10,854 bases of DNA, from UHGV virus genome UHGV-0142836; one strand, 5' to 3'. A program made the position numbers and the translations under genes. The notes under the pieces were generated by a model. That model made no database searches. It was not told the origin of the DNA and was given only the letters and a program-made list of their open reading frames with translations. This document shows, piece after piece, positions 1 to 10,854 of this stretch (position 1 is its first letter; the number at the start of each line of letters is the position of its first letter). The DNA is from a virus.

Positions 1-692
1 TCATAGTTCCTTCGTAGTTCCTCTTAAAAAATCACTTACAGACACCTTAATATCTATACAGATTTCACGTAGAACACGATTAGTGCGTAAAACAGCTATT
101 ATGTTAAAAACACACTGTATACGTATCAGTACTGATTTATAAGGGTTTTGTGTATTTGAAGATAAGAGGCTATACAGCACCTTGAGAGCATGTCTTCTAA
201 GTCATTGATACATAAGGTCACAGAAGTTTGTGTCTGTTACAGAGAAAACTGGATAGGACTTCACAGAACTACAAAATGTTACAGCTATTGATAGGTGAAA
301 TCTTCTTGATAGATGCTTTGAAGTGTGGTGAAGGTTTCTTGAGGTGGAATTAACAGATGCTATGAAGAAAGTCAATAGTTGGTTATAGATATTTTAACTG
401 CTTTTGCAAAGGGGGTGCTATATCGTGAATCTGGGGTACTTAACAGCCATCAATCATGAGGTAGATTCTACCGAATCAACTGTGTAGATATTTTTAAGAT
501 TATCGGTGAAGGGGGAATGCAGAGGGGGTACTACGATTTTTATAAAAATTTTCAGAAGCTAAATAACTACTGTACAGATTTTATACAACTCTACCAAACA
601 TCATAGAAAGCTCTGTAGCGAGTTTTAACCCCATTTTTAGGGGTAGTCTATAGGTATGTACCGCCCACCTTTAAATAAAGGGGTAAAATCGC

Positions 693-723
693 TTAGAATG
701 CGTTACAGAGCGTCTGAGAAGCT
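693..723. repeat. Solo copy of an R2 arm (see R2 copies at 1949-2047 and 3622-3750)
   Basis: 'ttagaatgcgttacagagcgtctgagaagct' matches the reverse complement of 3622-3652 with about 4 central mismatches, and also resembles the R2 right-arm core 'cgttacagagcg'. Confidence 0.5.
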
Positions 724-1490
724 ATATTCACAGATTTTACTAAAACCTCAGACTTTCTAAGTGGTCTTTTTAACAGGAGGGTTCTTTCTCATGTATCACC
801 CTCTCTTCCCACTGAGTAAGCTACACAGACCTAGAGAACATGCCTTCACAACACCTATATAGGTCAGATTTAGAGGGTTTTGATAGAATCTTCAAAGGTA
901 CTTGACAGATAACTATGAAGTTGTTAGGAAGGAGTGTTTAACGGGGGAAGAGATACGATATAACCCGAAGGGGAGAGTATCATCTTAACAGTGATTGTAA
1001 GAGTAAAACTGAAAAGATACTTAACAGAACTACCAAGAGGGAGCGATAAGACCAGAGGTAGTGACCTTGTTAAACAGTTCGTTTCAAAGCTCTTAAGAAT
1101 CTGTTAAGTAAGGTCATGTGAACAATCTTACCATTTTGTCAATGCTTTTGTCTTTGACCTAAATCAATAAAATGTATCGTTTGATATGTTTTTAAACAAA
1201 ATAGTTAAAAATCTTTTTAGAGGTGCGCTTCGCTTGTGTCACCAATATCATTCTTCCCTGTCTAAGAGGGAAGTTACAGGGCATTTCAAAGCCCTCAATA
1301 GGCAAACCGAGGAATACGGAAAACCGAGGGAAGAAAAACTATTGTGATTACCTTGAACAAGGTCTGTAAAGGTCGTTTAAGAGGTCGGTTAAGAAGGGAG
1401 CTTCCCTTTCTTGGGTGTCGCTCTTCTCCCGCTTAGTGGATTGATTAAGAAGACCTCTGAAGTTTCTCTGTGAAGGTGCTGAACAGCTAT

Positions 1491-1543
1491 TATATTGGGT
1501 GATTACAACTTATTGAAAAATAAGAACTTTTATAAGTTACTGT
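1491..1543. repeat. 53-bp direct repeat, copy 1, containing palindrome 'cttattgaaaaataag' (1509-1524)
   Basis: First 42 bp are identical to 1585-1626, then 2 mismatches in the next 11 bp; internal 6-bp inverted repeat CTTATT/AATAAG around GAAA, followed by AACTT-ttat-AAGTT. Confidence 0.7.
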
Positions 1544-1584
1544 TAAGGTTACAGAGTTAACTGTGAAGAGACTTGTCAGTCTTA

Positions 1585-1637
1585 TATATTGGGTGATTAC
1601 AACTTATTGAAAAATAAGAACTTTTAGAAATTACTGT
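1585..1637. repeat. 53-bp direct repeat, copy 2 (94 bp downstream of copy 1)
   Basis: Same sequence as 1491-1543, including the internal palindromes. Confidence 0.7.
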
Positions 1638-1719
1638 CAGAGAGGTGAATACTTGATAGATACAGCTTTCCGGTTCTGTCAAGCTATTTTTTAATAGATA
1701 GCACAAAATGCTAAAGATA

Positions 1720-1749
1720 CCCCCCTATACATCTCGTACAGGGGGTTTT
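1720..1749. terminator. Probable bidirectional intrinsic terminator
   Basis: GC-rich hairpin 'cccccctatac-atctc-gtacaggggg' (about 9 of 10 bp paired) followed by TTTT on the plus strand and by a T-rich run on the minus strand; lies 10 bp beyond the stop of the minus-strand gene at 1759. Confidence 0.45.
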
Positions 1750-1758
1750 GGAGGGGGT

Positions 1759-1935
1759 TTAGCGGGGGTCTGTATGGTCATTATCCTTAAGGTCAAGCGT
1801 CCATGTACGACCGAACAGTTTAAAGACAACAAGCACCCTGACGAGGACGTAGCGAAGTAGCAGACCTGCAATAAGTCCAATACCTCCACCAGCCCACACA
1901 TCAGGTGACCCCAATTCCTGAGGGAGATTTACCAT
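1759..1935 (-). CDS. Small hydrophobic membrane protein, 58 aa (MVNLPQELGSPDVWAGGGIGLIAGLLLRYVLVRVLVVFKLFGRTWTLDLKDNDHTDPR)
   Basis: The six-frame ORF runs 1759-1977 from a TTG; the in-frame ATG at 1935-1933 is preceded by AAGGA about 7 nt upstream. One predicted transmembrane stretch (GGGIGLIAGLLLRYVLVRVLVVF). Terminator immediately downstream. Function not recognised. Confidence 0.4.
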   Translation of the reverse strand: MVNLPQELGSPDVWAGGGIGLIAGLLLRYVLVRVLVVFKLFGRTWTLDLKDNDHTDPR

Positions 1936-1948
1936 TAGTTTTCCTTGT

Positions 1949-2047
1949 AAGACGCTCTCAATCGCATTCTGACACAAAAAGTATCTGACCTTATGAGTTG
2001 ACCTGAAGAGGCCGTTTAACTCGTTACAGAGCGATTGAAGAGGTCTG
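1949..2047. repeat. R2 element copy 1: inverted-repeat arms (1951-1970 and 2014-2047) around a ~40-bp spacer
   Basis: Left arm 'gacgctctcaatcgcattct' and right arm 'gtttaactcgttacagagcgattgaagaggtctg' are near-identical to the arms at 3631-3650 and 3717-3750; the arms are imperfect reverse complements of each other (GCGATTGA core). Confidence 0.6.
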
Positions 2048-2079
2048 TGTGCAATGCAATAACCATGTGACCAAATACA

Positions 2080-2118
2080 TAGTTGATTCGGTTAGTTGGG
2101 ATTGTACCAACCCCTATC
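2080..2118. repeat. att-like composite repeat (left copy): 18-bp part A at 2080-2097 fused to 26-bp part B at 2093-2118
   Basis: 'tagttgattcggttagtt' is identical to 10825-10842; 'tagttgggattgtaccaacccctat' matches 10529-10554 with 2 mismatches. A degenerate A-like sequence 'catagttccttcgtagttcc' also sits at 2-21. Confidence 0.45.
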
Positions 2119-2204
2119 GAATAAACCTCATAGCCACGCCTTTATATTTTACTCTCCCCATAAACCCATTATACCACAGATGTTAATAAAATGTTAAAAA
2201 ATAC

Positions 2205-2233
2205 TTGACATTAGCCTTTGAAAATGCTAGGAT
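2205..2233 (+). promoter_or_regulatory. Sigma70-like promoter P1: TTGACA, 17-bp spacer, TGcTAGGAT (extended -10)
   Basis: TTGACA at 2205-2210 and TAGGAT at 2228-2233 with TG at 2225-2226; followed by 'ttgtatatat', which is shared with promoter P2 at 4197-4225. Confidence 0.4.
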
Positions 2234-2283
2234 TGTATATATGAGTTAACAGAGAATTAACAATTATAAGGGCCAGCTTATGA

Positions 2284-2836: not shown

Positions 2837-3115
2837 ATGAATAAACACACTCTAACCCGTATTTCAGAGGAAGCTTTTAACGAGCTTAACAGAATTAAAC
2901 GAGCGACTAACCTGCCTCATCAGACTATTATGCAGCTTGCAATTGCTAAAGAGGTCACTGAGTCGGATTTACTGAAATATCCAGTTTCTAAAGGTCGCAG
3001 ACACATCAGAATTACTAAGAACGCTCTGGCTACTCTGAAGGAACTGAACAACTTTAAAATTGATATTGCCCGACTATTGAGCATCAAGATTCACAAGCTA
3101 TCGATGGGGGTTTAA
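2837..3115 (+). CDS. Putative small DNA-binding protein, 92 aa, possibly ribbon-helix-helix
   Basis: GGAGG at 2823-2827 sits 9 nt before ATG 2837. The track ORF (2738-3115) extends upstream inside the previous gene, so the internal ATG is preferred. N-terminus 'HTLTRISEEAFNELNRIKRATNLPHQTIMQLAIAKE' fits a strand-helix-turn-helix RHH pattern (inference only). Confidence 0.45.
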   Translation: MNKHTLTRISEEAFNELNRIKRATNLPHQTIMQLAIAKEVTESDLLKYPVSKGRRHIRITKNALATLKELNNFKIDIARLLSIKIHKLSMGV

Positions 3116-3327: not shown

Positions 3328-3615
3328 ATGAAACCTTGGCATGAAGATGTTAGAAGATATTTTGCAGAACACCTTATCTATGATGAATCCAGTGATTCCC
3401 TGTGCTGGTCTGATGGAGAGTCAGTCACGATAAATACCGACGACTACGGCAACAAAACATTTAATATAGGTCGATACACATTCTATGTGAAATATGTTGT
3501 CTGGTTCCTTTATCATGGCTATCAATCCAATAAGCAAATTATCCATCGAAATGGTAACAGAGCCGATACCAGACCAAAAAACCTTATGCAAGTCCGAGAC
3601 TTTAAGAGAAATTAG
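3328..3615 (+). CDS. Small HNH-family endonuclease, 95 aa
   Basis: GAGGAGG immediately upstream of ATG 3328. C-terminal 'YVVWFLYHGYQSNKQIIHRNGNRADTRPKNLMQV' matches the phage HNH pattern (HRlvw...H-x-dGn-x-dNr-x-NL). Confidence 0.55.
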   Translation: MKPWHEDVRRYFAEHLIYDESSDSLCWSDGESVTINTDDYGNKTFNIGRYTFYVKYVVWFLYHGYQSNKQIIHRNGNRADTRPKNLMQVRDFKRN

Positions 3616-3621
3616 AAAAAC

Positions 3622-3750
3622 AGCTTCTCAGACGCTCTCAATCGCATTCTAACGCAAAAAACTACCTTGTTTTAGGGTGGGTAATACCACTGTACAGGCT
3701 ACCCCTGAAAAAGACTGTTTAGCTCGTTACAGAGCGATTGAGGAGGTCTG
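3622..3750. repeat. R2 element copy 2: arms at 3631-3650 and 3717-3750 around a ~66-bp spacer containing hairpin GGGTA...TACCC and palindrome CTGTACAG
   Basis: Arms near-identical to copy 1 while the spacer is unrelated; the element ends 5 nt before the AAGGAG Shine-Dalgarno of the gene at 3772. Confidence 0.6.
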
Positions 3751-5684: not shown

Positions 5685-5769
5685 CTATCGAATCCTATGT
5701 GCTACGTGAAATCTTCTGAACAGATATACCCACCAAAAATTATTTTTTACGTAGCTCACGCTTAACAGA
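5685..5769 (+). repeat. R1 element copy a: conserved stem-loop (GCTACGTGAA 5701-5710 pairing with TTTACGTAGC 5745-5754) plus box 'tcacgcttaacaga', 16 nt before ATG 5785
   Basis: About 85% identical over ~85 bp to 7957-8034, with the same spacing to the downstream start codon. Confidence 0.65.
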
Positions 5770-5784
5770 GGTGAAATATGAACA

Positions 5785-7875
5785 ATGGCACAATTTAAAG
5801 TTGATAGTTTTATCGTTGAGCTAGGCTTCAGCGAGAGCGTTATTAAGGGCTTGCAAAGAGTTGAAAAGGCAGCTTTGCAGTCAGCACAAAGAATTGAAAA
5901 GAACCTAAATAAAGGTTTTAGGATTAATACAAAGCAGCTTGATAGTAATTTAACGGCTTCTTTAGGGCAGCTTGAAAGAAAGTTTAATAAGACTTTTGAT
6001 AAGATTGAACAGAGAGCAAGAAATACTAAAGCTTTCCAGTTTACAACCAGATTTAATGACACTGTTAATCCTCCAAAACAATCAAGGCAACCACGAATTA
6101 GCGGAAACAGAGCAATCACAGCAGCGCATAGCGTGAATATGTCTAAGCTTGGTGATATTAATCCGCTGATGGCTAAAATGTTTAAAGCACAGTATTACAG
6201 CTTAAGCGGTAAGGCTGGTAATATTGGAAGTGAAAAGTTTAACGCTGAACTTGCAAAATTAAATCAATCTCTTCGTGAAACGTTGAATAAACTCAGGTCA
6301 CAGACAAAGACCACCAGCAAAAACAATCACAGTGAAAATGCTTCGAATGGTCTGGATGTATTAGCTACGAGTGCAATCAAAGCAGGTACAGCCATTTATA
6401 GTTTTCAGACAGCCTTAGAAGCTTACAAGAAGGTTATGGAGGTTGGTCTGAAAAAAGAAGCATCACAACGAGCGGCACAATTCGTTTTAGGTGATGAAGG
6501 TGCTAAACGAGCTACAGAATTTGTGAAGAATCTTGCTAATAATACAGGTGTTGACCAGATTGAGACATTAAGCAGCTTTGCTAAGTTTTCCGCTGGTGCT
6601 GGTGATATGAATGCAGACCAGAAAGAATCCTTATTTAGTAATGTGATTGGTACATCCCGACTAATGGGTTTAAGCACTGATGAGATTAACGGGATTCTAA
6701 AAGCTTTCGAGCAGATGGCTTCTAAAGGGAAGATTCAGGCTGAAGAGCTACGTGGTCAATTAGGGGACAGAATGGCAGGTGCTTTTCAGTTATTTGCCAG
6801 AAGCCTTGGGATGACTACAGAGCAATTAGATGCAGCTATGAAGAACGGTAAAGTTCTTTCTAAAGATGTTCTTCCTAAAGTATCCGCTGAAATGGGAAGG
6901 ATGATTGATAAAGCTGGTGGATGGGAAAAGATTATTAACTCTACTCAGACGCAGTTAGGCCGCCTTTCTAATTCATGGAATAATAATCTGGCCTTAATGT
7001 TCGATGGTTCACAGGAAGGTTTAACAGACTTTACAAGGTCACTGACTAATTTACTTAATTCGCTAGGTGGGCAATCTAAAAATCTTGGTGAACATTTTGG
7101 CGACTTGATGAAAAGTATGTCAAACGGTATTGATGATTTAACCACGATTAGCTACCGAGTGCAGGGATTCTTTGACAGAGTGACCCTTGCTTACAGAGAA
7201 TTAAATGACACTCAAAAAGCTGTAGCTGATGGTATCGCAAATGGCCTGTTAAGTGCATTAAAGGGACTTGCTGGTATTGTTGCTGTAAGGTCTGGTATTG
7301 GTGCTGTAGGTGGCATCTGGAACTTAATTAGGGCTATTTCCACGCTTGGAAATGTAGCAAATACAGCAGCGGGAAGAATCAATTCACGTTCTGGTACTGG
7401 TAGTGTTGAAGGTGGTAAAGGAAAATTATCTGTAGCTGATGCAATTACCAAAGTAATGATTGTTGGTATGGCAACTGATGTGATTAACTCCATTGTTAAA
7501 CCGTTCTATGAACGTCAGATGAGTAAGTCAGATAATCCAATTGACAAAGTTGTAAGGTCAAAGGTGGAACCCACAGACCAAGCATTGACTGGTGACATGA
7601 ACTCTTTAGCTGCTGTTTTATGGGCTATGGTTCAGGGCAAATCAAAGGATGTTCCACAGCTTTCACCTGAAGCATTAAATAATCTGAAAGGTCGAGTGGA
7701 AACATTCACACAAGATTTAAAGGTTATCAAGCCGTCAGTAAACATTCAGCCTCAGACAATCAATATCACAACTCAGACGGTACTTGATGGAAAGGTTATT
7801 GATGAAAGAACCACATCGCATATTAATCGTATGCAGGAAGATACCTTGATTAGCTCAGCTTACCCAGAGGAATAA
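5785..7875 (+). CDS. Protein with a phage tail tape-measure-like domain, 696 aa
   Basis: The segment 'FEQMASKGKIQAEELRGQLGDRMAGAFQLFARSLGMTTEQLDAAMKNGKVLSKDVLPKV' resembles the conserved tape-measure domain of lambda-like phages; Gly/Ala-rich hydrophobic stretch 'GLLSALKGLAGIVAVRSGIGAVGG'. Unusually short for a tape measure and lacking neighbouring tail genes. Confidence 0.5.
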   Translation: MAQFKVDSFIVELGFSESVIKGLQRVEKAALQSAQRIEKNLNKGFRINTKQLDSNLTASLGQLERKFNKTFDKIEQRARNTKAFQFTTRFNDTVNPPKQSRQPRISGNRAITAAHSVNMSKLGDINPLMAKMFKAQYYSLSGKAGNIGSEKFNAELAKLNQSLRETLNKLRSQTKTTSKNNHSENASNGLDVLATSAIKAGTAIYSFQTALEAYKKVMEVGLKKEASQRAAQFVLGDEGAKRATEFVKNLANNTGVDQIETLSSFAKFSAGAGDMNADQKESLFSNVIGTSRLMGLSTDEINGILKAFEQMASKGKIQAEELRGQLGDRMAGAFQLFARSLGMTTEQLDAAMKNGKVLSKDVLPKVSAEMGRMIDKAGGWEKIINSTQTQLGRLSNSWNNNLALMFDGSQEGLTDFTRSLTNLLNSLGGQSKNLGEHFGDLMKSMSNGIDDLTTISYRVQGFFDRVTLAYRELNDTQKAVADGIANGLLSALKGLAGIVAVRSGIGAVGGIWNLIRAISTLGNVANTAAGRINSRSGTGSVEGGKGKLSVADAITKVMIVGMATDVINSIVKPFYERQMSKSDNPIDKVVRSKVEPTDQALTGDMNSLAAVLWAMVQGKSKDVPQLSPEALNNLKGRVETFTQDLKVIKPSVNIQPQTINITTQTVLDGKVIDERTTSHINRMQEDTLISSAYPEE

Positions 7876-7956: not shown

Positions 7957-8034
7957 AGTCGAATGCTACGTGATTTCTTCTGAACAGATACCAACATCAA
8001 AAATTAGATTTCACGTAGCTCACGCTTAACAGAA
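7957..8034 (+). repeat. R1 element copy b: stem GCTACGTGA (7965-7973) / TCACGTAGC (8011-8019), box 'tcacgcttaacaga' (8020-8033), 15 nt before ATG 8049
   Basis: Perfect 9-bp stem with a 37-nt loop whose sequence ('tcttctgaacagata...caaaaatta') is conserved with copy a. Confidence 0.65.
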
Positions 8035-8048
8035 TAGGAATAACAACA

Positions 8049-8819
8049 ATGTTTGACACAAAGCAAATTAGATACTCAGGTAAAGATGGTATCTATTTTC
8101 ACCTTAGAGATAATGTAGAATCTTTTCTTGCCTTAACAGCTACTGAACAGATGGACTATGACAGCCCTATGATGGTGACAACTCAGGCTATGCAATCAGG
8201 GCAAACCGTCACAGATAATGTTCAGAGAGCACCTAAGACCATCTCTATTAGCGGTGTTGTAGTGGTTGATTCGACGGGTTCAATTCTATTAACCAGACAG
8301 GGGCAACTTGTAGAGACCTTTATTTCTACGGTTGAACAATGGCGAGACCAGAAGCAAATCATCACTATTGTTTGTAGAGATGGAATAGCTATCACTGATA
8401 GTATCATTACTCAGTTTAAAGCGAGTAAAGAGCATACCATTGCTAATGGTCTTCGTATTCAGATGACCTTCCAAGGTGTAGAATTTCGTTCAATCGTAGG
8501 TCAAACTGATATTTCGGCTGCAACTGGAAAAGCCGCGACTACGAATGATGGTGGTGCTACCAGTAAAAAGAATACAGGGAATACTACGACAAGTTTAGGT
8601 AATGGTATGTTGCTGTGTCAGGAGTTATATAATCGCTCTACGAGTGAACTCACTAATGAGCAACTTCAAGCCCGTATCAATTGTGGTAGAAGTGTCAAAG
8701 TTGAGAACGGAAAAAGCACCTTCTCAGATGCCGCTAATGAGCAGGCTTCAAAAGTGCTTAAGTCGGGTAATGCTTTACGGAAATTTAGTGTGAATCCGAA
8801 TAAGAAGGGCACTTATTGA
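8049..8819 (+). CDS. Hypothetical protein, 256 aa, with a Thr/Gly/Ser-rich central region
   Basis: Intact ORF immediately after R1b; no recognisable motif. A distal-tail or other structural role is conceivable only from its position after the tape-measure-like gene. Confidence 0.55.
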
Positions 8820-8828
8820 GACATAAAA

Positions 8829-8851: not shown

Positions 8852-10372
8852 TTACAGTTGATAAGCGTCAATATCCAGTAGCTCTTTATCAGCAATTTCA
8901 AAGATTGGTGACCCATCATTTAGCGGTAACGGGTTTGTAGGTATGGTGATTTTAGTGTCGTTCTGTAGCGTTACAGTTACCGAATCCTTACCCAATGTAA
9001 GCCCTTTTAGATGTTTGGACAAAATCAACTGACACTCGACACGACCTGCTTTAGTTGTCAGGTCAATATCTTTAAGCTGGGGTAGTTCCTTATCAGTGAG
9101 TGAAGCCTTACGCCTCATGTTATCAATCGTGGTCTGTAGCTCTGTGCGCTTCTGGTTAAGTCCCTTCACCTGTGTTTTCAACTCTGTAATATCATCCATT
9201 TCAAGAAGTAGGGCGGTAGCTTTCTTGATTCTAGCTGTGACAATTTCAACCTCATGCTGTAACGCTGCAATCTTCCTCTCTGATTCTCCATCATTCCCCA
9301 CGTCAATCATCCCCAGAAAATTATCAATCATCCATCGGTCAAACGGTTTACGCTTCAACGGTGGAACATCACAGCGACCGTCAGGATTGTTATTGCACCT
9401 GTAAACTCCTGCATACTTATTCTTAGTCCCTGTAGGGTGAACACTAGCCCCACACTGACACCGGAATAATCCCTTGAAGATGTTAATCGTTAATGGGTTA
9501 TCACTTGCAGGTGTACGGCCTTTACGATTTTTATCGAGGATTTCTTGAGCTTTATTGAACGTTGCAGCATCTATAGCGGCTTCGTAGTAGTTCGGTATAG
9601 CGGGGCGGTCATTGCGCTGTGATGCTGGTAACGTGCCTATTGTTGTCTCCGACCTTAAGATGGTGCGTACAGAGTGGACACTAAACCCGTTAGCATCTTT
9701 ACGCCGTGAGAATGAACTAATGTTATTAGCCTGTAGGTGACGTGCAATGTTATGTAGACTTTCACCATCTAGCAGCAGTTTGAAAATCAGTCTTACAGTC
9801 TCAGCGTGTTCATTGACTTCAAAAGTCTCAGGGTCAATCCATCCGGGGACCATCTTTGTTAAACGTTGTTTACCAGCAAGGGCAAGTTTTGCACGTTGCC
9901 CCCATTTCTGAGAAACACGGAAAGACTTCTGTTTACTCTCCTGATGCGCTAGGTAGCTTTTAACCCGCTGAATGATTGAGATTCCTAAATCATCGGATAG
10001 AGCATCCCTTGTGTAGATTAGCCCATCCTGTAGAGTGTGAATCTCGATACCATGAGCAATAATGCGGTTCATCAAGGCTTCTGTTTCAAGGTGTTCTAAG
10101 CGGCCTATACGGTCGATACTCTCAACAAGCAAAATCGTACCTTTTGAAAACTCCCCAGACTCAATACGGGCTAACATGTCACCAAACTGACCAGTAAGGT
10201 GCTTACCTTTGTAACCGGATAGACCCTCATCACTGAAAGACGCTACTACTTGAGCATCGCTATTCTTCTTCAACCATTGCTTGAACAGGTCATTTTGTCG
10301 TCTGGTTGAATCTGCACCTTCAGCGCCTTGTATGGCTGAACTGTACCGAAGGTATGTAATTACGCTTCTCAT
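8852..10372 (-). CDS. Large serine recombinase (phage or element integrase), 506 aa
   Basis: N-terminal resolvase-type catalytic domain (YLRYSS...Q with the Ser nucleophile, DEGLSGYKG, IDRIGR); a Cys cluster (CQCGASVH...YRCNNNPDGRCD) consistent with a zinc ribbon; C-terminal coiled-coil segment. Confidence 0.9.
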   Translation of the reverse strand: MRSVITYLRYSSAIQGAEGADSTRRQNDLFKQWLKKNSDAQVVASFSDEGLSGYKGKHLTGQFGDMLARIESGEFSKGTILLVESIDRIGRLEHLETEALMNRIIAHGIEIHTLQDGLIYTRDALSDDLGISIIQRVKSYLAHQESKQKSFRVSQKWGQRAKLALAGKQRLTKMVPGWIDPETFEVNEHAETVRLIFKLLLDGESLHNIARHLQANNISSFSRRKDANGFSVHSVRTILRSETTIGTLPASQRNDRPAIPNYYEAAIDAATFNKAQEILDKNRKGRTPASDNPLTINIFKGLFRCQCGASVHPTGTKNKYAGVYRCNNNPDGRCDVPPLKRKPFDRWMIDNFLGMIDVGNDGESERKIAALQHEVEIVTARIKKATALLLEMDDITELKTQVKGLNQKRTELQTTIDNMRRKASLTDKELPQLKDIDLTTKAGRVECQLILSKHLKGLTLGKDSVTVTLQNDTKITIPTNPLPLNDGSPIFEIADKELLDIDAYQL

Positions 10373-10528
10373 GGTGATAAACTCTCATGCAATTGATTAT
10401 CATTTAAAGATAAGCTTATAACCGTTATGGCTAATGCTACAATGCCGAATAGCTACAATACAATGACCCTTGAATGAAGTCTATTCGGTTTTCTAAGAGA
10501 CCTGTTAAAAACAGGACAATATCAGGTG

Positions 10529-10554
10529 TAGTTGGGCTTGTTCCAACCCCTATG
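10529..10554. repeat. att-like repeat part B (right copy), containing hairpin GTTGG-gcttgtt-CCAAC
   Basis: 'tagttgggcttgttccaacccctat' matches 2093-2118 with 2 mismatches; lies about 155 bp upstream of the recombinase start. Confidence 0.4.
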
Positions 10555-10824
10555 ACTATGCAATTTTCCAAGTATCTAAGCAGTTTTACACAGATTCTAT
10601 GCAGTATCGGTATAGTCCCTTTTTATCATAACTTATTGAAATATATAAAGAATATGTGAAGTCCCTTTTCAGGGTAAACTGTATCGTGTTAGTCGTCCCT
10701 CTCCAGACTCCTAGAAAAGTGCTATATACAGGAGTATATAACGCTATATAGATGTTTGGTCACCATACGTTACAGTTGCAAGAGATAACAATCAGCTATG
10801 TGAAAGTTAGGAGGTGATGGTTAT

Positions 10825-10842
10825 AGTTGATTCGGTTAGTTC
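10825..10842. repeat. att-like repeat part A (right copy), 18 bp identical to 2080-2097
   Basis: Exact 18-bp direct repeat about 8.75 kb from its partner; flanking sequence differs on both sides, as expected for a recombination junction. Confidence 0.45.
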
Positions 10843-10854
10843 TAGGAATCAACC

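What the first reader, a model, noticed from the sequence alone, without database searches (positions are those of the whole stretch)
1491..1637. Paired 53-bp direct repeats with internal palindromes next to an AT-rich block
Two copies 94 bp apart are identical over the first 42 bp, and each contains the 16-bp palindrome CTTATTgaaaAATAAG plus AACTT-ttat-AAGTT. Iteron-like direct repeats carrying a dimer-binding palindrome near an AT-rich region (about 1130-1240) are typical of replication origins or partition sites.
Basis: inference. Interest (0 to 1): 0.45.

Follow-up and report, generated by a model that had tools for sequence, protein, structure and literature searches.

The report
Conserved tandem module in satellite-like island
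The two repeats are real: they are a tandem duplication of a strongly conserved non-coding DNA module in the gene-free control region of an apparently undescribed E. coli island related to Felix-O1-type lytic phages, and its job (an origin-like protein-loading site is my leading guess) is still unproven.

Summary
Observation confirmed. 1491-1543 and 1585-1637 match at 51/53 positions, and the first 42 are identical. They are the best-kept cores of a 94-bp tandem duplication (1462-1555 and 1556-1649).

The window is the circular form of a ~10.9-kb integrative island of E. coli, present in 570 of 5,426 complete genomes. It carries a large serine integrase, a tape-measure protein and a Dit-like tail protein related to Felix-O1-like phages (Ounavirinae), and a 2.66-kb gene-free region that holds the repeats.

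The module occurs in more than 50 related islands with 1, 2 or 3 copies. It is 91-96% identical across them, more conserved than second codon positions of neighbouring genes (85-92%).

The "dimer-binding palindromes" are not conserved. One arm is broken without compensation in about 40% of copies, including most single-copy islands. No Rep or Par protein was found. The AT-rich block is real; in relatives it sits directly upstream of a dam-like gene.

The island's gene-free region shares segments, and the octamer CTGTKAAG, with the gene-free region of Ounavirinae genomes. Three of its four plus-strand octamers lie in the tandem units, roughly in helical phase.

Best reading (confidence about 0.3): a DNA-level protein-loading module, origin-like, comparable to the non-coding region of the V. 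cholerae satellite PLE. Rivals are part of a plus-strand RNA, a promoter module, or a packaging site.

The parts
1462..1555 (.). Unit 1 of the 94-bp tandem duplication; it contains the first 53-bp copy, 1491-1543.
   Evidence: Global alignment of 1462-1555 with 1556-1649; D4 repeat.
1556..1649 (.). Unit 2 of the tandem duplication; it contains the second 53-bp copy, 1585-1637.
   Evidence: This is the copy kept in single-copy relatives together with its 3' flank CAGAGAGG.
1502..1543 (.). Conserved core of unit 1. Near-invariant blocks ATTACAAC, TTGAAAAATAA, TTTTAGAA and TTACTGT are separated by 1-4-nt variable spots.
   Evidence: Column composition of 76 distinct copies.
1596..1637 (.). Conserved core of unit 2, with the same blocks as unit 1.
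   Evidence: Identity to relatives is 0.95 outside the search pattern.
1509..1524 (.). Palindrome CTTATTgaaaAATAAG in copy 1. It is perfect in the window but not conserved.
   Evidence: The third pair is broken in 20/38 relatives with no compensation.
1603..1618 (.). Palindrome CTTATTgaaaAATAAG in copy 2.
   Evidence: The third pair is broken in 9/38 relatives. These columns lie partly inside the pattern used to find the relatives.
1468..1475 (+). Octamer CTGTGAAG, the motif type that fills the gene-free region of Ounavirinae genomes.
   Evidence: Motif counts and positions; near-invariant in all units.
1540..1547 (+). Octamer CTGTTAAG at the junction of the two units.
   Evidence: It lies 72 nt from the previous octamer and 21 nt from the next one, close to whole helical turns.
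1561..1568 (+). Octamer CTGTGAAG of unit 2.
1650..1719 (+). Best-conserved block of the gene-free region. It has two candidate plus-strand hairpins, 1659-1680 and 1683-1702.
   Evidence: Identity is 96% across 56 loci. 99% of cells are paired, and all variation is one-sided and wobble-compatible on the + strand.
1720..1750 (.). Bidirectional intrinsic terminator shared by the plus-strand unit and the small minus-strand ORF.
   Evidence: Terminator scan for the minus strand. On the + strand the stem is followed by TTTT. Pairs are kept in relatives.
1759..1935 (-). Small ORF of 58 aa with one hydrophobic helix, convergent with the repeats.
   Evidence: ORF list and reading of the sequence. It is annotated as a hypothetical protein in an O55:H7 genome.
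1091..1240 (.). The AT-rich block. In relatives it lies directly upstream of a dam-like methyltransferase/HTH gene that the window lacks. 1038-1133 is homologous to phage non-coding DNA.
   Evidence: GC content; L052 sequence and Pfam hits; homology to the JH2, BPS15Q2 and KMM2 gene-free regions.
902..930 (+). Sigma-70-like promoter TTGACA-17-TAGGAA with an extended TG. It points towards the repeats.
   Evidence: Repeat family D7, shared with the scanned promoter at 2205-2233.
2205..2233 (+). Promoter TTGACA-17-TAGGAT of the main operon, which starts at 2284.
   Evidence: Promoter scan, 10/12 matches plus TG.
1..2283 (.). Main part of the gene-free region. It continues from 10475-10854 across the window ends, for 2,663 bp in all.
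   Evidence: No long ORF under any genetic code. The window end is contiguous with the window start in relatives.
10462..10474 (.). attP core CAATGACCCTTGA, identical to the start of tonB.
   Evidence: Junction comparison of K-12 with two island-bearing genomes.
8852..10372 (-). Large serine recombinase, the integrase of the island.
   Evidence: Pfam Resolvase + Recombinase + Zn_ribbon_recom.

Best explanation
The two 53-bp repeats are the well-preserved cores of a tandem duplication of a ~94-bp module. The module lies in the 2.66-kb gene-free control region of a ~10.9-kb integrative island of E. coli, and the window is that island's circular form. The island looks like a satellite of Felix-O1-like (Ounavirinae) lytic phages.

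I read the module as a cis-acting DNA element on which proteins assemble. It has a ~45-bp core at 26% GC, rich in A-tracts, made of four near-invariant blocks. The core is flanked by copies of the octamer CTGTKAAG, roughly in helical phase. The same octamer type is stacked at 11-bp intervals in the gene-free region of the phages.

The most likely use is origin-like. A DNA-binding protein, possibly supplied by the helper phage because the island has no recognisable initiator, would load on the phased sites and conserved blocks and open or bend the AT-rich core. This would allow helper-dependent replication of the excised circle, as the non-coding region does in the V. cholerae satellite PLE.

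Shown:
- the repeat and its conservation;
- the variable copy number;
- the island context;
- the kinship with phage non-coding DNA;
- the non-conservation of the palindromes.

Inferred:
- action at the DNA level;
- the identity of the binding protein;
- replication as the process served.

The duplication itself is dispensable; one copy is enough in many islands.
For: - **Real and conserved.** The tandem module is present in 52 metagenome loci, 2 viral contigs and 409 of 5,426 complete E. coli genomes.
- **Under constraint.** Identity to the window is 0.91 for copy 1, 0.95 for copy 2 outside the search pattern and 0.96 for 1638-1720. Second codon positions of neighbouring genes are at 0.85-0.92 and third positions at 0.69-0.81.
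- **Island context.** There is a large serine integrase. The attP core equals the tonB start, and the island is inserted between yciI and tonB. The window ends are contiguous in relatives.
- **Kinship with Ounavirinae.** The Dit-like protein is 72% identical and the tape-measure protein ~30% identical to theirs. GATC is absent from both the island and phage SUSP2: 0 against 38 and 313 expected. Segments 305-588 and 1038-1133 are homologous to the phages' 1.7-kb gene-free region, E 1e-8 to 1e-24.
- **Shared octamer.** CTGT[TG]AAG is found 4+/4- in the island's gene-free region (0.1 expected per strand) and 7, 6 and 2 times on one strand of three phage gene-free regions (about 0.05 expected). 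Three of the island's four plus-strand copies are in the units, at spacings of 72 and 21 nt.
- **Helical periodicity.** Variability along unit 2 plus the downstream block has an ~11-nt period, permutation p about 0.002. This is what one-face protein contact on DNA would give.
- **AT-richness.** The units are among the most AT-rich spots of the window.
- **Precedent.** PLE has a 2.7-kb non-coding region with four repeat types. One of them is the origin iteron, a semi-palindromic repeat converging on a poly-A tract (PMC7145576).
- **No RNA support for the repeats.** There is no Rfam match and no covariation for hairpins in the repeats.
Against: - No initiator gene was found: no Pfam, PHROG, NCBIfam, PADLOC or PDB sequence hits for the six unassigned ORFs.
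- The AF2 model of the 183-aa protein (pLDDT 68) has no PDB fold match.
- One to three copies at a 94-bp period is unlike classical iterons.
- The palindrome is not maintained.
- No DnaA box or IHF consensus occurs near the units.
- The module itself has no counterpart in the phage gene-free regions examined or in 50,697 phage records. Mimicry of a helper site is therefore not shown for the core.
- The region lies between a plus-strand promoter and a plus-strand terminator, so it is probably transcribed, and an RNA role is not excluded.
- The periodicity test is liberal: permutation destroys clustering and several regions were tried.
- High conservation could partly reflect recombination among islands.
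Confidence: 0.3

Rival explanations
1. RNA-level element. The units are part of a plus-strand transcript, either a 3' UTR or a processed or primary small RNA, that ends at the intrinsic terminator 1720-1750. The conserved single-stranded blocks would act as pairing or protein-binding sequences.
For: - A sigma-70-like promoter at 902-930 points towards the units. In relatives a dam-like gene lies just upstream.
- A terminator with a U-tract on the + strand follows.
- In hairpins 1659-1680 and 1683-1702 and the terminator, 99% of cells are paired. The consensus has several G-U pairs, and all changes are wobble-compatible only on the + strand.
- GTTACAG occurs 10 times on the + strand and once on the - strand.
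Against: - No compensatory (two-sided) change occurs anywhere; the covariation term is -1.36 and the shuffle control is uninformative.
- The hairpins inside the repeats are not conserved.
- There is no Rfam match, even in a permissive scan.
- A small hairpin module at 1385-1420 may terminate upstream transcripts (reading of the sequence).
- The ~11-nt periodicity of variability fits DNA better than RNA.
Confidence: 0.22
2. Promoter module. Each unit is a copy of the upstream (UP-element plus -35) part of a phage-early-type promoter. Only the last unit keeps a -10-like box (CTGTCA-17-TAGATA with TG, 1634-1662). It would drive an ~80-nt RNA ending at the terminator.
For: - The island promoters at 902-930 and 2205-2233 have the style TACTTGACA-N14-TGN-TAGGAT, as do phage early intergenic promoters, TTTACA-N14-TGC-TAGTAT.
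- The unit core resembles the upstream part of one phage promoter by eye: CAACTTAC-AAAAAA-CTTTCAAAAATTACTTGAC against CAACTTATTGAAAAATAAGAACTTTTAGAAATTACTGTCAG.
- The region is AT-rich with A-tracts.
Against: - The promoter scan does not find it on the + strand.
- The -10 lacks the final T in every relative, and the TG is lost in four.
- The resemblance to the phage promoter is not recovered by BLAST or nhmmer.
- Internal units have no -10.
Confidence: 0.13
3. Packaging recognition site. The module is where a helper terminase, or an island protein that redirects it, binds to package the island.
For: - A satellite must be packaged by its helper.
- The site is strongly conserved across islands that differ in integrase and cargo.
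- The island's gene-free region is homologous to the phage gene-free region, and many phage records begin or end there. This is consistent with phage genome ends lying in that region; direct terminal repeats are reported for Felixounavirus phages by PhageTerm (PMC11737134).
Against: - The module has no counterpart in any phage record.
- The only record end I checked (KMM2) is a 64-bp assembly overlap, not a physical end.
- No terminase gene is present in the island.
Confidence: 0.12
4. No function of its own. The pair is a neutral slippage or unequal-crossover duplication inside a conserved region, and its conservation reflects hitch-hiking and frequent recombination among islands.
For: - Copy number varies from 1 to 3.
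- The two alleles (GTG/CTA and AAC/CAT/TAT) are shuffled between copy 1 and copy 2 in different islands, as gene conversion would do.
- The gene-free region is mosaic.
Against: - At least one copy is present in every related locus retrieved through a protein match rather than through the repeat pattern: L001, L002 and the genome loci L057, L058.
- The core blocks are near-invariant in 76 distinct copies, while flanking genes diverge to 65% protein identity.
Confidence: 0.1
5. Partition (centromere-like) site for stable inheritance of the excised circle.
For: Only the form: direct repeats with internal dyads.
Against: - No ParA/ParB/ParM/ParR-type gene is present.
- The element is chromosomally integrated in all 1,117 places found, never on plasmids.
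- One copy suffices.
Confidence: 0.02

Closest known systems
Non-coding region and origin iterons of the Vibrio cholerae satellite PLE (Barth et al. 2020, PMC7145576)
   Same: - An integrative island with a large serine recombinase that is tied to a lytic myovirus.
- A ~2.7-kb gene-free region holding several repeat families.
- In the window, semi-palindromic direct repeats whose arms converge on an A-tract.
   Different: - PLE encodes its own RepA_N initiator, which binds the iteron. No initiator is recognisable here.
- The dyad is not conserved among relatives.
- The period is 94 bp with 1-3 copies.
- No sequence similarity to PLE was tested or seen.
- Replication of this island has not been observed.
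Iteron-type origins of plasmids and phages (lambda ori; P4 ori with its cis replication region crr of two long direct repeats; recalled from general knowledge)
   Same: Direct repeats next to AT-rich DNA. For P4 crr, a pair of long (~120-bp) direct repeats that carry shorter binding motifs, in a satellite.
   Different: - No cognate initiator, DnaA boxes or IHF site.
- The short motif CTGTKAAG occurs only 3-4 times.
- A single unit is enough in many islands.
Gene-free region of Ounavirinae genomes (SUSP2 70.7-72.4 kb; JH2; BPS15Q2; KMM2)
   Same: - Homologous segments (window 305-588 and 1038-1133).
- The same octamer family (TGTTAAG/CTGTKAAG).
- The same small hairpin module (AGTTGGGATTGTACCAACCCCT against AGTGGTATTGTTACCAATCCCT).
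- The same total lack of GATC.
   Different: - The phages carry more than 20 octamers at strict 11-bp phase; the island has a few scattered ones.
- The 45-bp core of the finding has no phage counterpart.
- I found no reported function for the phage region.
Convergent type I toxin-antitoxin loci that share a bidirectional terminator and direct repeats (par of pAD1, Fst/RNA II; recalled from general knowledge)
   Same: A small hydrophobic ORF (1759-1935, minus strand) convergent with a plus-strand non-coding unit, a shared bidirectional terminator, and direct repeats nearby.
   Different: - No copy of the repeat lies in the 5' part of the small ORF's transcript, so the repeat-based pairing that defines par is absent.
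- Toxicity is untested.

Membership tests
Iteron-type replication origin | Three or more short (about 17-22 bp) direct repeats, usually in helical phase. | tested here: not met
   The 53-bp cores belong to a 94-bp unit present 1, 2 or 3 times. The short octamer CTGTKAAG occurs 3 times in the units, at spacings of 72 and 21 nt. That is suggestive but is not an iteron array.
Iteron-type replication origin | A cognate initiator (Rep) gene in the same element. | tested here: not met
   No Rep family appears in Pfam, PHROGs, NCBIfam or PADLOC. There is no PDB sequence match. The AF2 model of the 183-aa protein has no fold match. The fold of the other small ORFs is untested or of poor quality.
Iteron-type replication origin | An AT-rich, easily unwound region next to the repeats. 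| tested here: met
   GC is 0.265 in 1491-1637 and 0.297 in 1130-1240, against 0.394 overall.
Iteron-type replication origin | Host factor sites (DnaA boxes, IHF). | tested here: not met
   The only DnaA-box consensus match is at 10584, and the only IHF consensus match is at 198 on the - strand. Neither is near the units.
Iteron-type replication origin | Supports replication in vivo. | not testable with these tools
   This needs copy-number or marker-frequency measurements after phage infection.
RepA_N-type iteron (as in PLE) | A semi-palindromic direct repeat whose inverted arms converge on a poly-A tract and which is bound by a RepA_N protein. | tested here: inconclusive
   The form is present in the window (CTTATT-GAAA-AATAAG). 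However, one arm is broken in 33 of 76 distinct copies (20/38 first and 9/38 second copies), and no RepA_N-like protein was detected.
Partition site (parS/parC) | Adjacent ParA/ParB or ParM/ParR genes and an extrachromosomal lifestyle. | tested here: not met
   No such genes are present. All 1,117 places in complete E. coli genomes are chromosomal.
Phage satellite of the PLE type (filing of the whole island) | An integrase with att sites and an excisable circle. | tested here: met
   There is a large serine recombinase. The 13-bp core is shared by attP and tonB. The window ends are contiguous in relatives.
Phage satellite of the PLE type (filing of the whole island) | Sequence ties to a specific helper phage. 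| tested here: met
   The tape-measure and Dit-like proteins, the homology of the gene-free regions and the absence of GATC are all shared with Ounavirinae.
Phage satellite of the PLE type (filing of the whole island) | Helper-dependent excision, replication and transfer. | not testable with these tools
   No experimental data are available, and no paper on this island was found.
Known structured RNA family (Rfam) | A match to a curated covariance model. | tested here: not met
   The whole window gives nothing at E <= 1. 1380-1800 at E <= 10 gives only eukaryotic noise hits.
Hairpin-forming element (terminator or operator dyad) at the two palindromes | Base pairs maintained across relatives, with compensatory changes. 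| tested here: not met
   87% of cells are paired, no better than the shuffle control. Key pairs are broken in 20/38, 27/38 and 23/38 sequences, and there is no compensation.

The most novel reading that the evidence does not exclude
The island is a previously undescribed family of E. coli satellites of strictly lytic Felix-O1-like phages, an enterobacterial counterpart of the V. cholerae PLE. The tandem module would be the cis site through which the island captures the helper's replication or packaging machinery without encoding an initiator of its own.
Probability: 0.25. Interest if true: 0.8.

Novelty: new variant of a known kind. Interest (0 to 1): 0.55.

Why it matters
If the reading holds, about one E. 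coli genome in ten carries one or more copies of a small island that parasitises or interferes with Felix-O1-type lytic phages. These phages are widely used for typing, biocontrol and therapy.

The tandem module and the conserved block after it are the most constrained DNA of that island. That makes them the natural handle for testing how the island is switched on, copied or packaged. It would also give the cholera PLE system a tractable E. coli parallel.

If the module proves to be only a neutral duplication, the finding itself is ordinary. The island around it would still deserve a look.

Tried and rejected
- **Alternative genetic codes** for the gene-free 1-2283: dropping any one stop codon opens no convincing ORF.
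- **tRNA, tmRNA and Rfam families**: none.
- **Direct similarity of the repeats or flanks to plasmids or phages**: none.
- **Profile search (nhmmer) of the repeat region** against SUSP2, JH2, BPS15Q2 and KMM2: no hit.
- **RNA hairpins in the repeats**: not conserved. The long-range pairing between the two copies predicted by RNAalifold has no covariation and follows from the dyads.
- **Invertible segment driven by the small recombinase of some relatives**: the recombinase regions of L057 and L058 are simply unrelated cargo, not inversions.
- **attP for the integrase**: the real core is at 10462-10474, 1.9 kb away.
- **res or hix-like recombination site, lambda nut-like boxA/boxB, CRP site**: these resemblances, seen by eye, are too weak or not conserved.
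- **Homology of the 183-aa protein to the same-sized phage gene next to the phage gene-free region**: none.
- **Tail-chaperone homology of the 250-aa and 71-aa ORFs**: none.
- **Ribbon-helix-helix assignment of the 92-aa ORF**: only sub-threshold hits, and the single-sequence AF2 model was poor.
- **Physical genome ends of the phages in the gene-free region**: the one record end I checked was a 64-bp assembly overlap.
- **Type I toxin-antitoxin with repeat pairing**: no repeat copy lies in the small ORF's leader.

Full report
**1. The observation**

The two copies are real. The repeat finder reports 1491-1543 and 1585-1637, 53 nt, 51/53 identical, 94 nt apart. Reading the sequence shows the first 42 nt are identical.

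CTTATTgaaaAATAAG is in both copies (1509-1524 and 1603-1618). AACTT-ttat-AAGTT is perfect only in copy 1; copy 2 has AACTT-ttag-AAATT.

A chance origin is excluded. The 17-mer core with up to 3 mismatches is expected 0.16 times and occurs 4 times.

The repeat is longer than reported. With weaker identity the homology runs from 1462 to 1555 and from 1556 to 1649, so this is a head-to-tail duplication of a 94-bp unit.

The AT-rich block is real, at GC 0.297 against 0.394 for the window. The repeats are even more AT-rich, at 0.265.

**2. What the window is**

Positions 1-2283 have no long ORF, and no change of genetic code opens one. Downstream lie six unassigned ORFs and an HNH endonuclease, then a tape-measure protein (5785-7875), a Dit-like tail protein (8049-8819) and, on the minus strand, a large serine recombinase (8852-10372).

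The tape-measure protein is ~30% identical and the Dit-like protein 72% identical to proteins of Felix-O1-like myoviruses, subfamily Ounavirinae.

In almost all relatives the last ~400 nt of the window lie directly upstream of its first nt; in L008 the two are contiguous. The window is therefore a circular permutation.

Megablast against complete E. coli genomes finds the element in 570 of 5,426 genomes. It is always chromosomal, with a median of 2 places per genome.

In strains A0 34/86 and O55:H7 TB182A it is an ~11-kb insert between yciI and tonB. Comparison with K-12 shows a 13-bp core, CAATGACCCTTGA, at both junctions. This is window 10462-10474, and it contains the tonB start codon. Other relatives sit next to rutG or yecN.

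The window is thus the excised form of an integrative island. The repeats lie in its 2,663-bp gene-free region (10475-10854 plus 1-2283), 1.9 kb from attP.

**3. The repeat in relatives**

One pattern scan of metagenome contigs returned 52 loci. Two viral contigs, found through the neighbouring 183-aa protein, also carry the repeat.

- **Copy number.** Among the loci that could be scored there are 10-13 with one unit, 36-38 with two and one with three. A complete, closed genome (WP8-S17-ESBL-08) has a single unit, so the variation is not an assembly artefact.
- **Conserved blocks.** In 76 distinct copies the blocks TGG, ATTACAAC, TTGAAAAATAA, TTTTAGAA and TTACTGT are nearly invariant. They are separated by 1-4-nt variable spots.
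- **Degree of conservation.** Identity to the window is 0.91 for copy 1, 0.95 for the part of copy 2 outside the search pattern, and 0.96 for the 83 nt that follow. Neighbouring genes show 0.85-0.92 at second and 0.69-0.81 at third codon positions. The module stays at about 90% identity even in L001, where the adjacent protein has dropped to 65%.
- **Conclusion.** The region is under constraint, or is homogenised by recombination.

**4. The palindromes**

They are not maintained.

- The third pair of CTTATT/AATAAG is T-to-C in 33 of 76 distinct copies, with the partner A invariant.
- On the 38-sequence alignment that pair is broken in 20/38 first copies and 9/38 second copies.
- The closing pair of the second palindrome is broken in 27/38.
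- No two-sided compensation occurs, and the paired fraction (87%) equals the shuffle control.
- Seven of ten single-copy islands carry the broken form.

A symmetric dimer site or an RNA hairpin is therefore not the selected feature.

**5. RNA tests**

Rfam gives nothing, and there are no tRNAs. RNAalifold on 38 two-copy sequences gives a covariation term of only -1.36.

The block after the units does carry two hairpins (1659-1680 and 1683-1702) and a terminator (1720-1750). In these, 99% of cells pair. All variation is one-sided and, because the consensus holds several G-U pairs, compatible only with a plus-strand RNA. This keeps an RNA role alive for the downstream block but does not prove it.

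A sigma-70-like promoter at 902-930 points towards the region. The terminator has a U-tract on both strands.

**6. The AT-rich block**

In L052 the same block is followed at once by a GTG-initiated gene for a Dam-like methyltransferase fused to a resolvase-type HTH. The window has lost this gene; only its first few nucleotides remain near 1237. Part of the block's left flank (1038-1133) is homologous to phage non-coding DNA.

The block's position suggests it is a gene leader. Nothing specifically marks it as an unwinding element.

**7. Kinship of the gene-free region with phage DNA**

- **Homologous segments.** blastn of window 1-900 against 50,697 phage records hits 145 records, nearly all Salmonella, Escherichia and Citrobacter phages; the top 25 hits all lie in an unannotated stretch. 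The three fetched (JH2, BPS15Q2, KMM2) are Ounavirinae. A sensitive comparison shows 305-588 and 1038-1133 are homologous to the ~1.7-kb gene-free region that lies between convergent gene blocks in JH2, BPS15Q2 and KMM2, with E 1e-8 to 1e-24. There are weaker clustered matches in SUSP2.
- **Octamer arrays in the phages.** The phage region is packed with TGTTAAG-type octamers at 11-bp phase. TGTTA[AG] occurs 21-24 times on one strand against about 1.7 expected.
- **Octamers in the island.** CTGT[TG]AAG occurs 4+/4- in the island's gene-free region against 0.1 expected. Three of the four plus-strand copies (1468, 1540, 1561) lie in the tandem units, at spacings of 72 and 21 nt, close to 7 and 2 helical turns. 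The 94-bp unit is close to 9 turns.
- **Other shared features.** Both share a small hairpin module and a promoter style. Most strikingly, both lack GATC completely: 0 sites in the window (38 expected), 0 in most related islands, and 0 in 87 kb of SUSP2 (313 expected).
- **What is island-specific.** The 45-bp core of the finding has no counterpart in any phage.

**8. Proteins**

None of the six unassigned ORFs matches a Rep, Par, terminase or defence family or a solved structure by sequence.

- The 183-aa protein has 1,062 homologues. All of the best 120 that carry a source name are called hypothetical, and the named ones come from Escherichia, Shigella, Salmonella and Citrobacter. Its AF2 model (pLDDT 68, all-alpha) has no PDB fold match.
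- A 92-aa ORF (2837-3115) gives sub-threshold ribbon-helix-helix and DndE hits. Its single-sequence model is too poor to use.

**9. Interpretation**

The module is a conserved, dispensably duplicated cis element in the control region of an island that has the hallmarks of a satellite of lytic Ounavirinae.

Variability along unit 2 and the following block has an ~11-nt period (permutation p about 0.002, a liberal test). Together with the phased octamers and the extreme AT content, this points to proteins contacting one face of the DNA.

The nearest precedent is the PLE satellite of V. cholerae. It has a large serine integrase, a lytic myovirus helper and a 2.7-kb non-coding region with four repeat families. 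One of these is the origin iteron, a semi-palindromic repeat converging on a poly-A tract (PMC7145576).

I therefore commit to an origin-like protein-loading site, at a confidence of only about 0.3. There is no initiator, no iteron array and no experimental datum.

The alternatives remain open, as set out under rival explanations:

- part of a plus-strand RNA;
- a phage-early-type promoter module;
- a packaging site;
- a neutral duplication.

A partition site has no support.

**10. Novelty**

Five literature searches found no description of this island or of a satellite of Felix-O1-like phages. The held library is incomplete, so this is absence of evidence only.

The repeat as such is a new variant of a known kind of element. 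The island around it is the more interesting object.

Noticed in passing
window 10462-10474 and both window ends: The window is a circular permutation of an ~10.9-kb integrative island. Its attP core CAATGACCCTTGA contains the tonB start codon, so insertion between yciI and tonB rebuilds the tonB 5' end but displaces the tonB promoter by 11 kb.
   Followed up: yes
whole window; L056+L060+L061 (phage SUSP2); L058, L013, L052, L001: GATC is completely absent: 0 sites against 38 expected in the window, 0 in most related islands, and 0 against 313 expected in 87 kb of the Ounavirinae phage SUSP2. Flanking E. coli DNA has normal counts. Some relatives nevertheless carry a Dam-like methyltransferase gene.
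   Followed up: partly
window 305-588 and 1038-1133; L063 2533-2993; L062 281-735; L060 44400-46070: Parts of the island's gene-free region are homologous to a ~1.7-kb gene-free region of Felixounavirus, Mooglevirus and Suspvirus genomes. That phage region is packed with more than 20 TGTTAAG-type octamers at 11-bp phase, and I found no reported function for it.
   Followed up: partly
window 236, 278, 702, 1273, 1548, 2023, 2345, 3726, 8970, 10769: The heptamer GTTACAG occurs 10 times on the + strand and once on the - strand. Seven of the plus-strand copies are in the 2.66-kb gene-free region. TTAACAG shows a weaker bias of the same kind (11 to 6).
   Followed up: partly
window 5700-5787 and 7964-8051; partial copies at 60-82 and 289-314: An 88-nt module, 82% identical between its two copies, lies immediately upstream of the start codons of the tape-measure and Dit-like genes. 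It contains a long dyad (GCTACGTGAAATCT ... AGATTTCACGTAGC). It has no match in the 24.8-kb structural-gene stretch of SUSP2 that was searched.
   Followed up: partly
window 1944-2047 and 3624-3750; inverted partial copy at 685-726: A ~100-nt module (CTTGTAAGACGCTCTCAATCGCATTCT ... CGTTACAGAGCGATTGAAGAGGTCTG) occurs twice in direct orientation and once partly inverted. One copy lies upstream of the small minus-strand ORF and one between the HNH gene and the next ORF.
   Followed up: no
window 1759-1935 (-): A conserved 58-aa ORF with one hydrophobic helix (MVNLPQELGSPDVWAGGGIGLIAGLLLRYVLV...) is convergent with the repeat region and shares its bidirectional terminator. It may be a small membrane-active protein.
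   Followed up: no
window 902-930 and 2205-2233; L060 38504-43026 intergenic regions: The two island promoters share TACTTGACA-N14-TGN-TAGGA(T/A). This is the same style as the repeated ~87-bp intergenic promoter modules of the phage early region (TTTACA-N14-TGC-TAGTAT).
   Followed up: partly
between window 588 and 768-928, and between 1242 and 1354, in relatives (L002 3537-4085; L057 4469-5044; L058 4023-4571; L052 8768-9436): The gene-free region of the window is the stripped-down version. Relatives carry cargo genes at two slots: unrelated small serine recombinases at one, and a Dam-like methyltransferase with an HTH at the other.
   Followed up: partly
window 2093-2117 and 10529-10553; L060 44619-44643 and 45236-45260: A small hairpin module, TAGTTGGGNTTGTNCCAACCCCTAT, occurs twice in the island. 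It resembles CTAAGTGGTATTGTTACCAATCCCT, which occurs twice in the SUSP2 gene-free region. Next to it the motif GTTGATTCGGT occurs three times in the island (470-486 inverted, 2081-2092, 10824-10835) and once in the phage region.
   Followed up: no
window 3328-3615: An HNH endonuclease gene sits among the small ORFs. Its position and neighbours differ among relatives, and some have an AP2-type protein as well, as expected of a mobile homing-endonuclease gene.
   Followed up: no
window 8811-8827 and 10631-10647: Two further partial copies of the core 17-mer (ACTTATTGAGACATAAA and ACTTATTGAAATATATA, 3 mismatches each) flank the integrase gene. One lies between the Dit and integrase stop codons, the other 160 bp from the attP core.
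   Followed up: no
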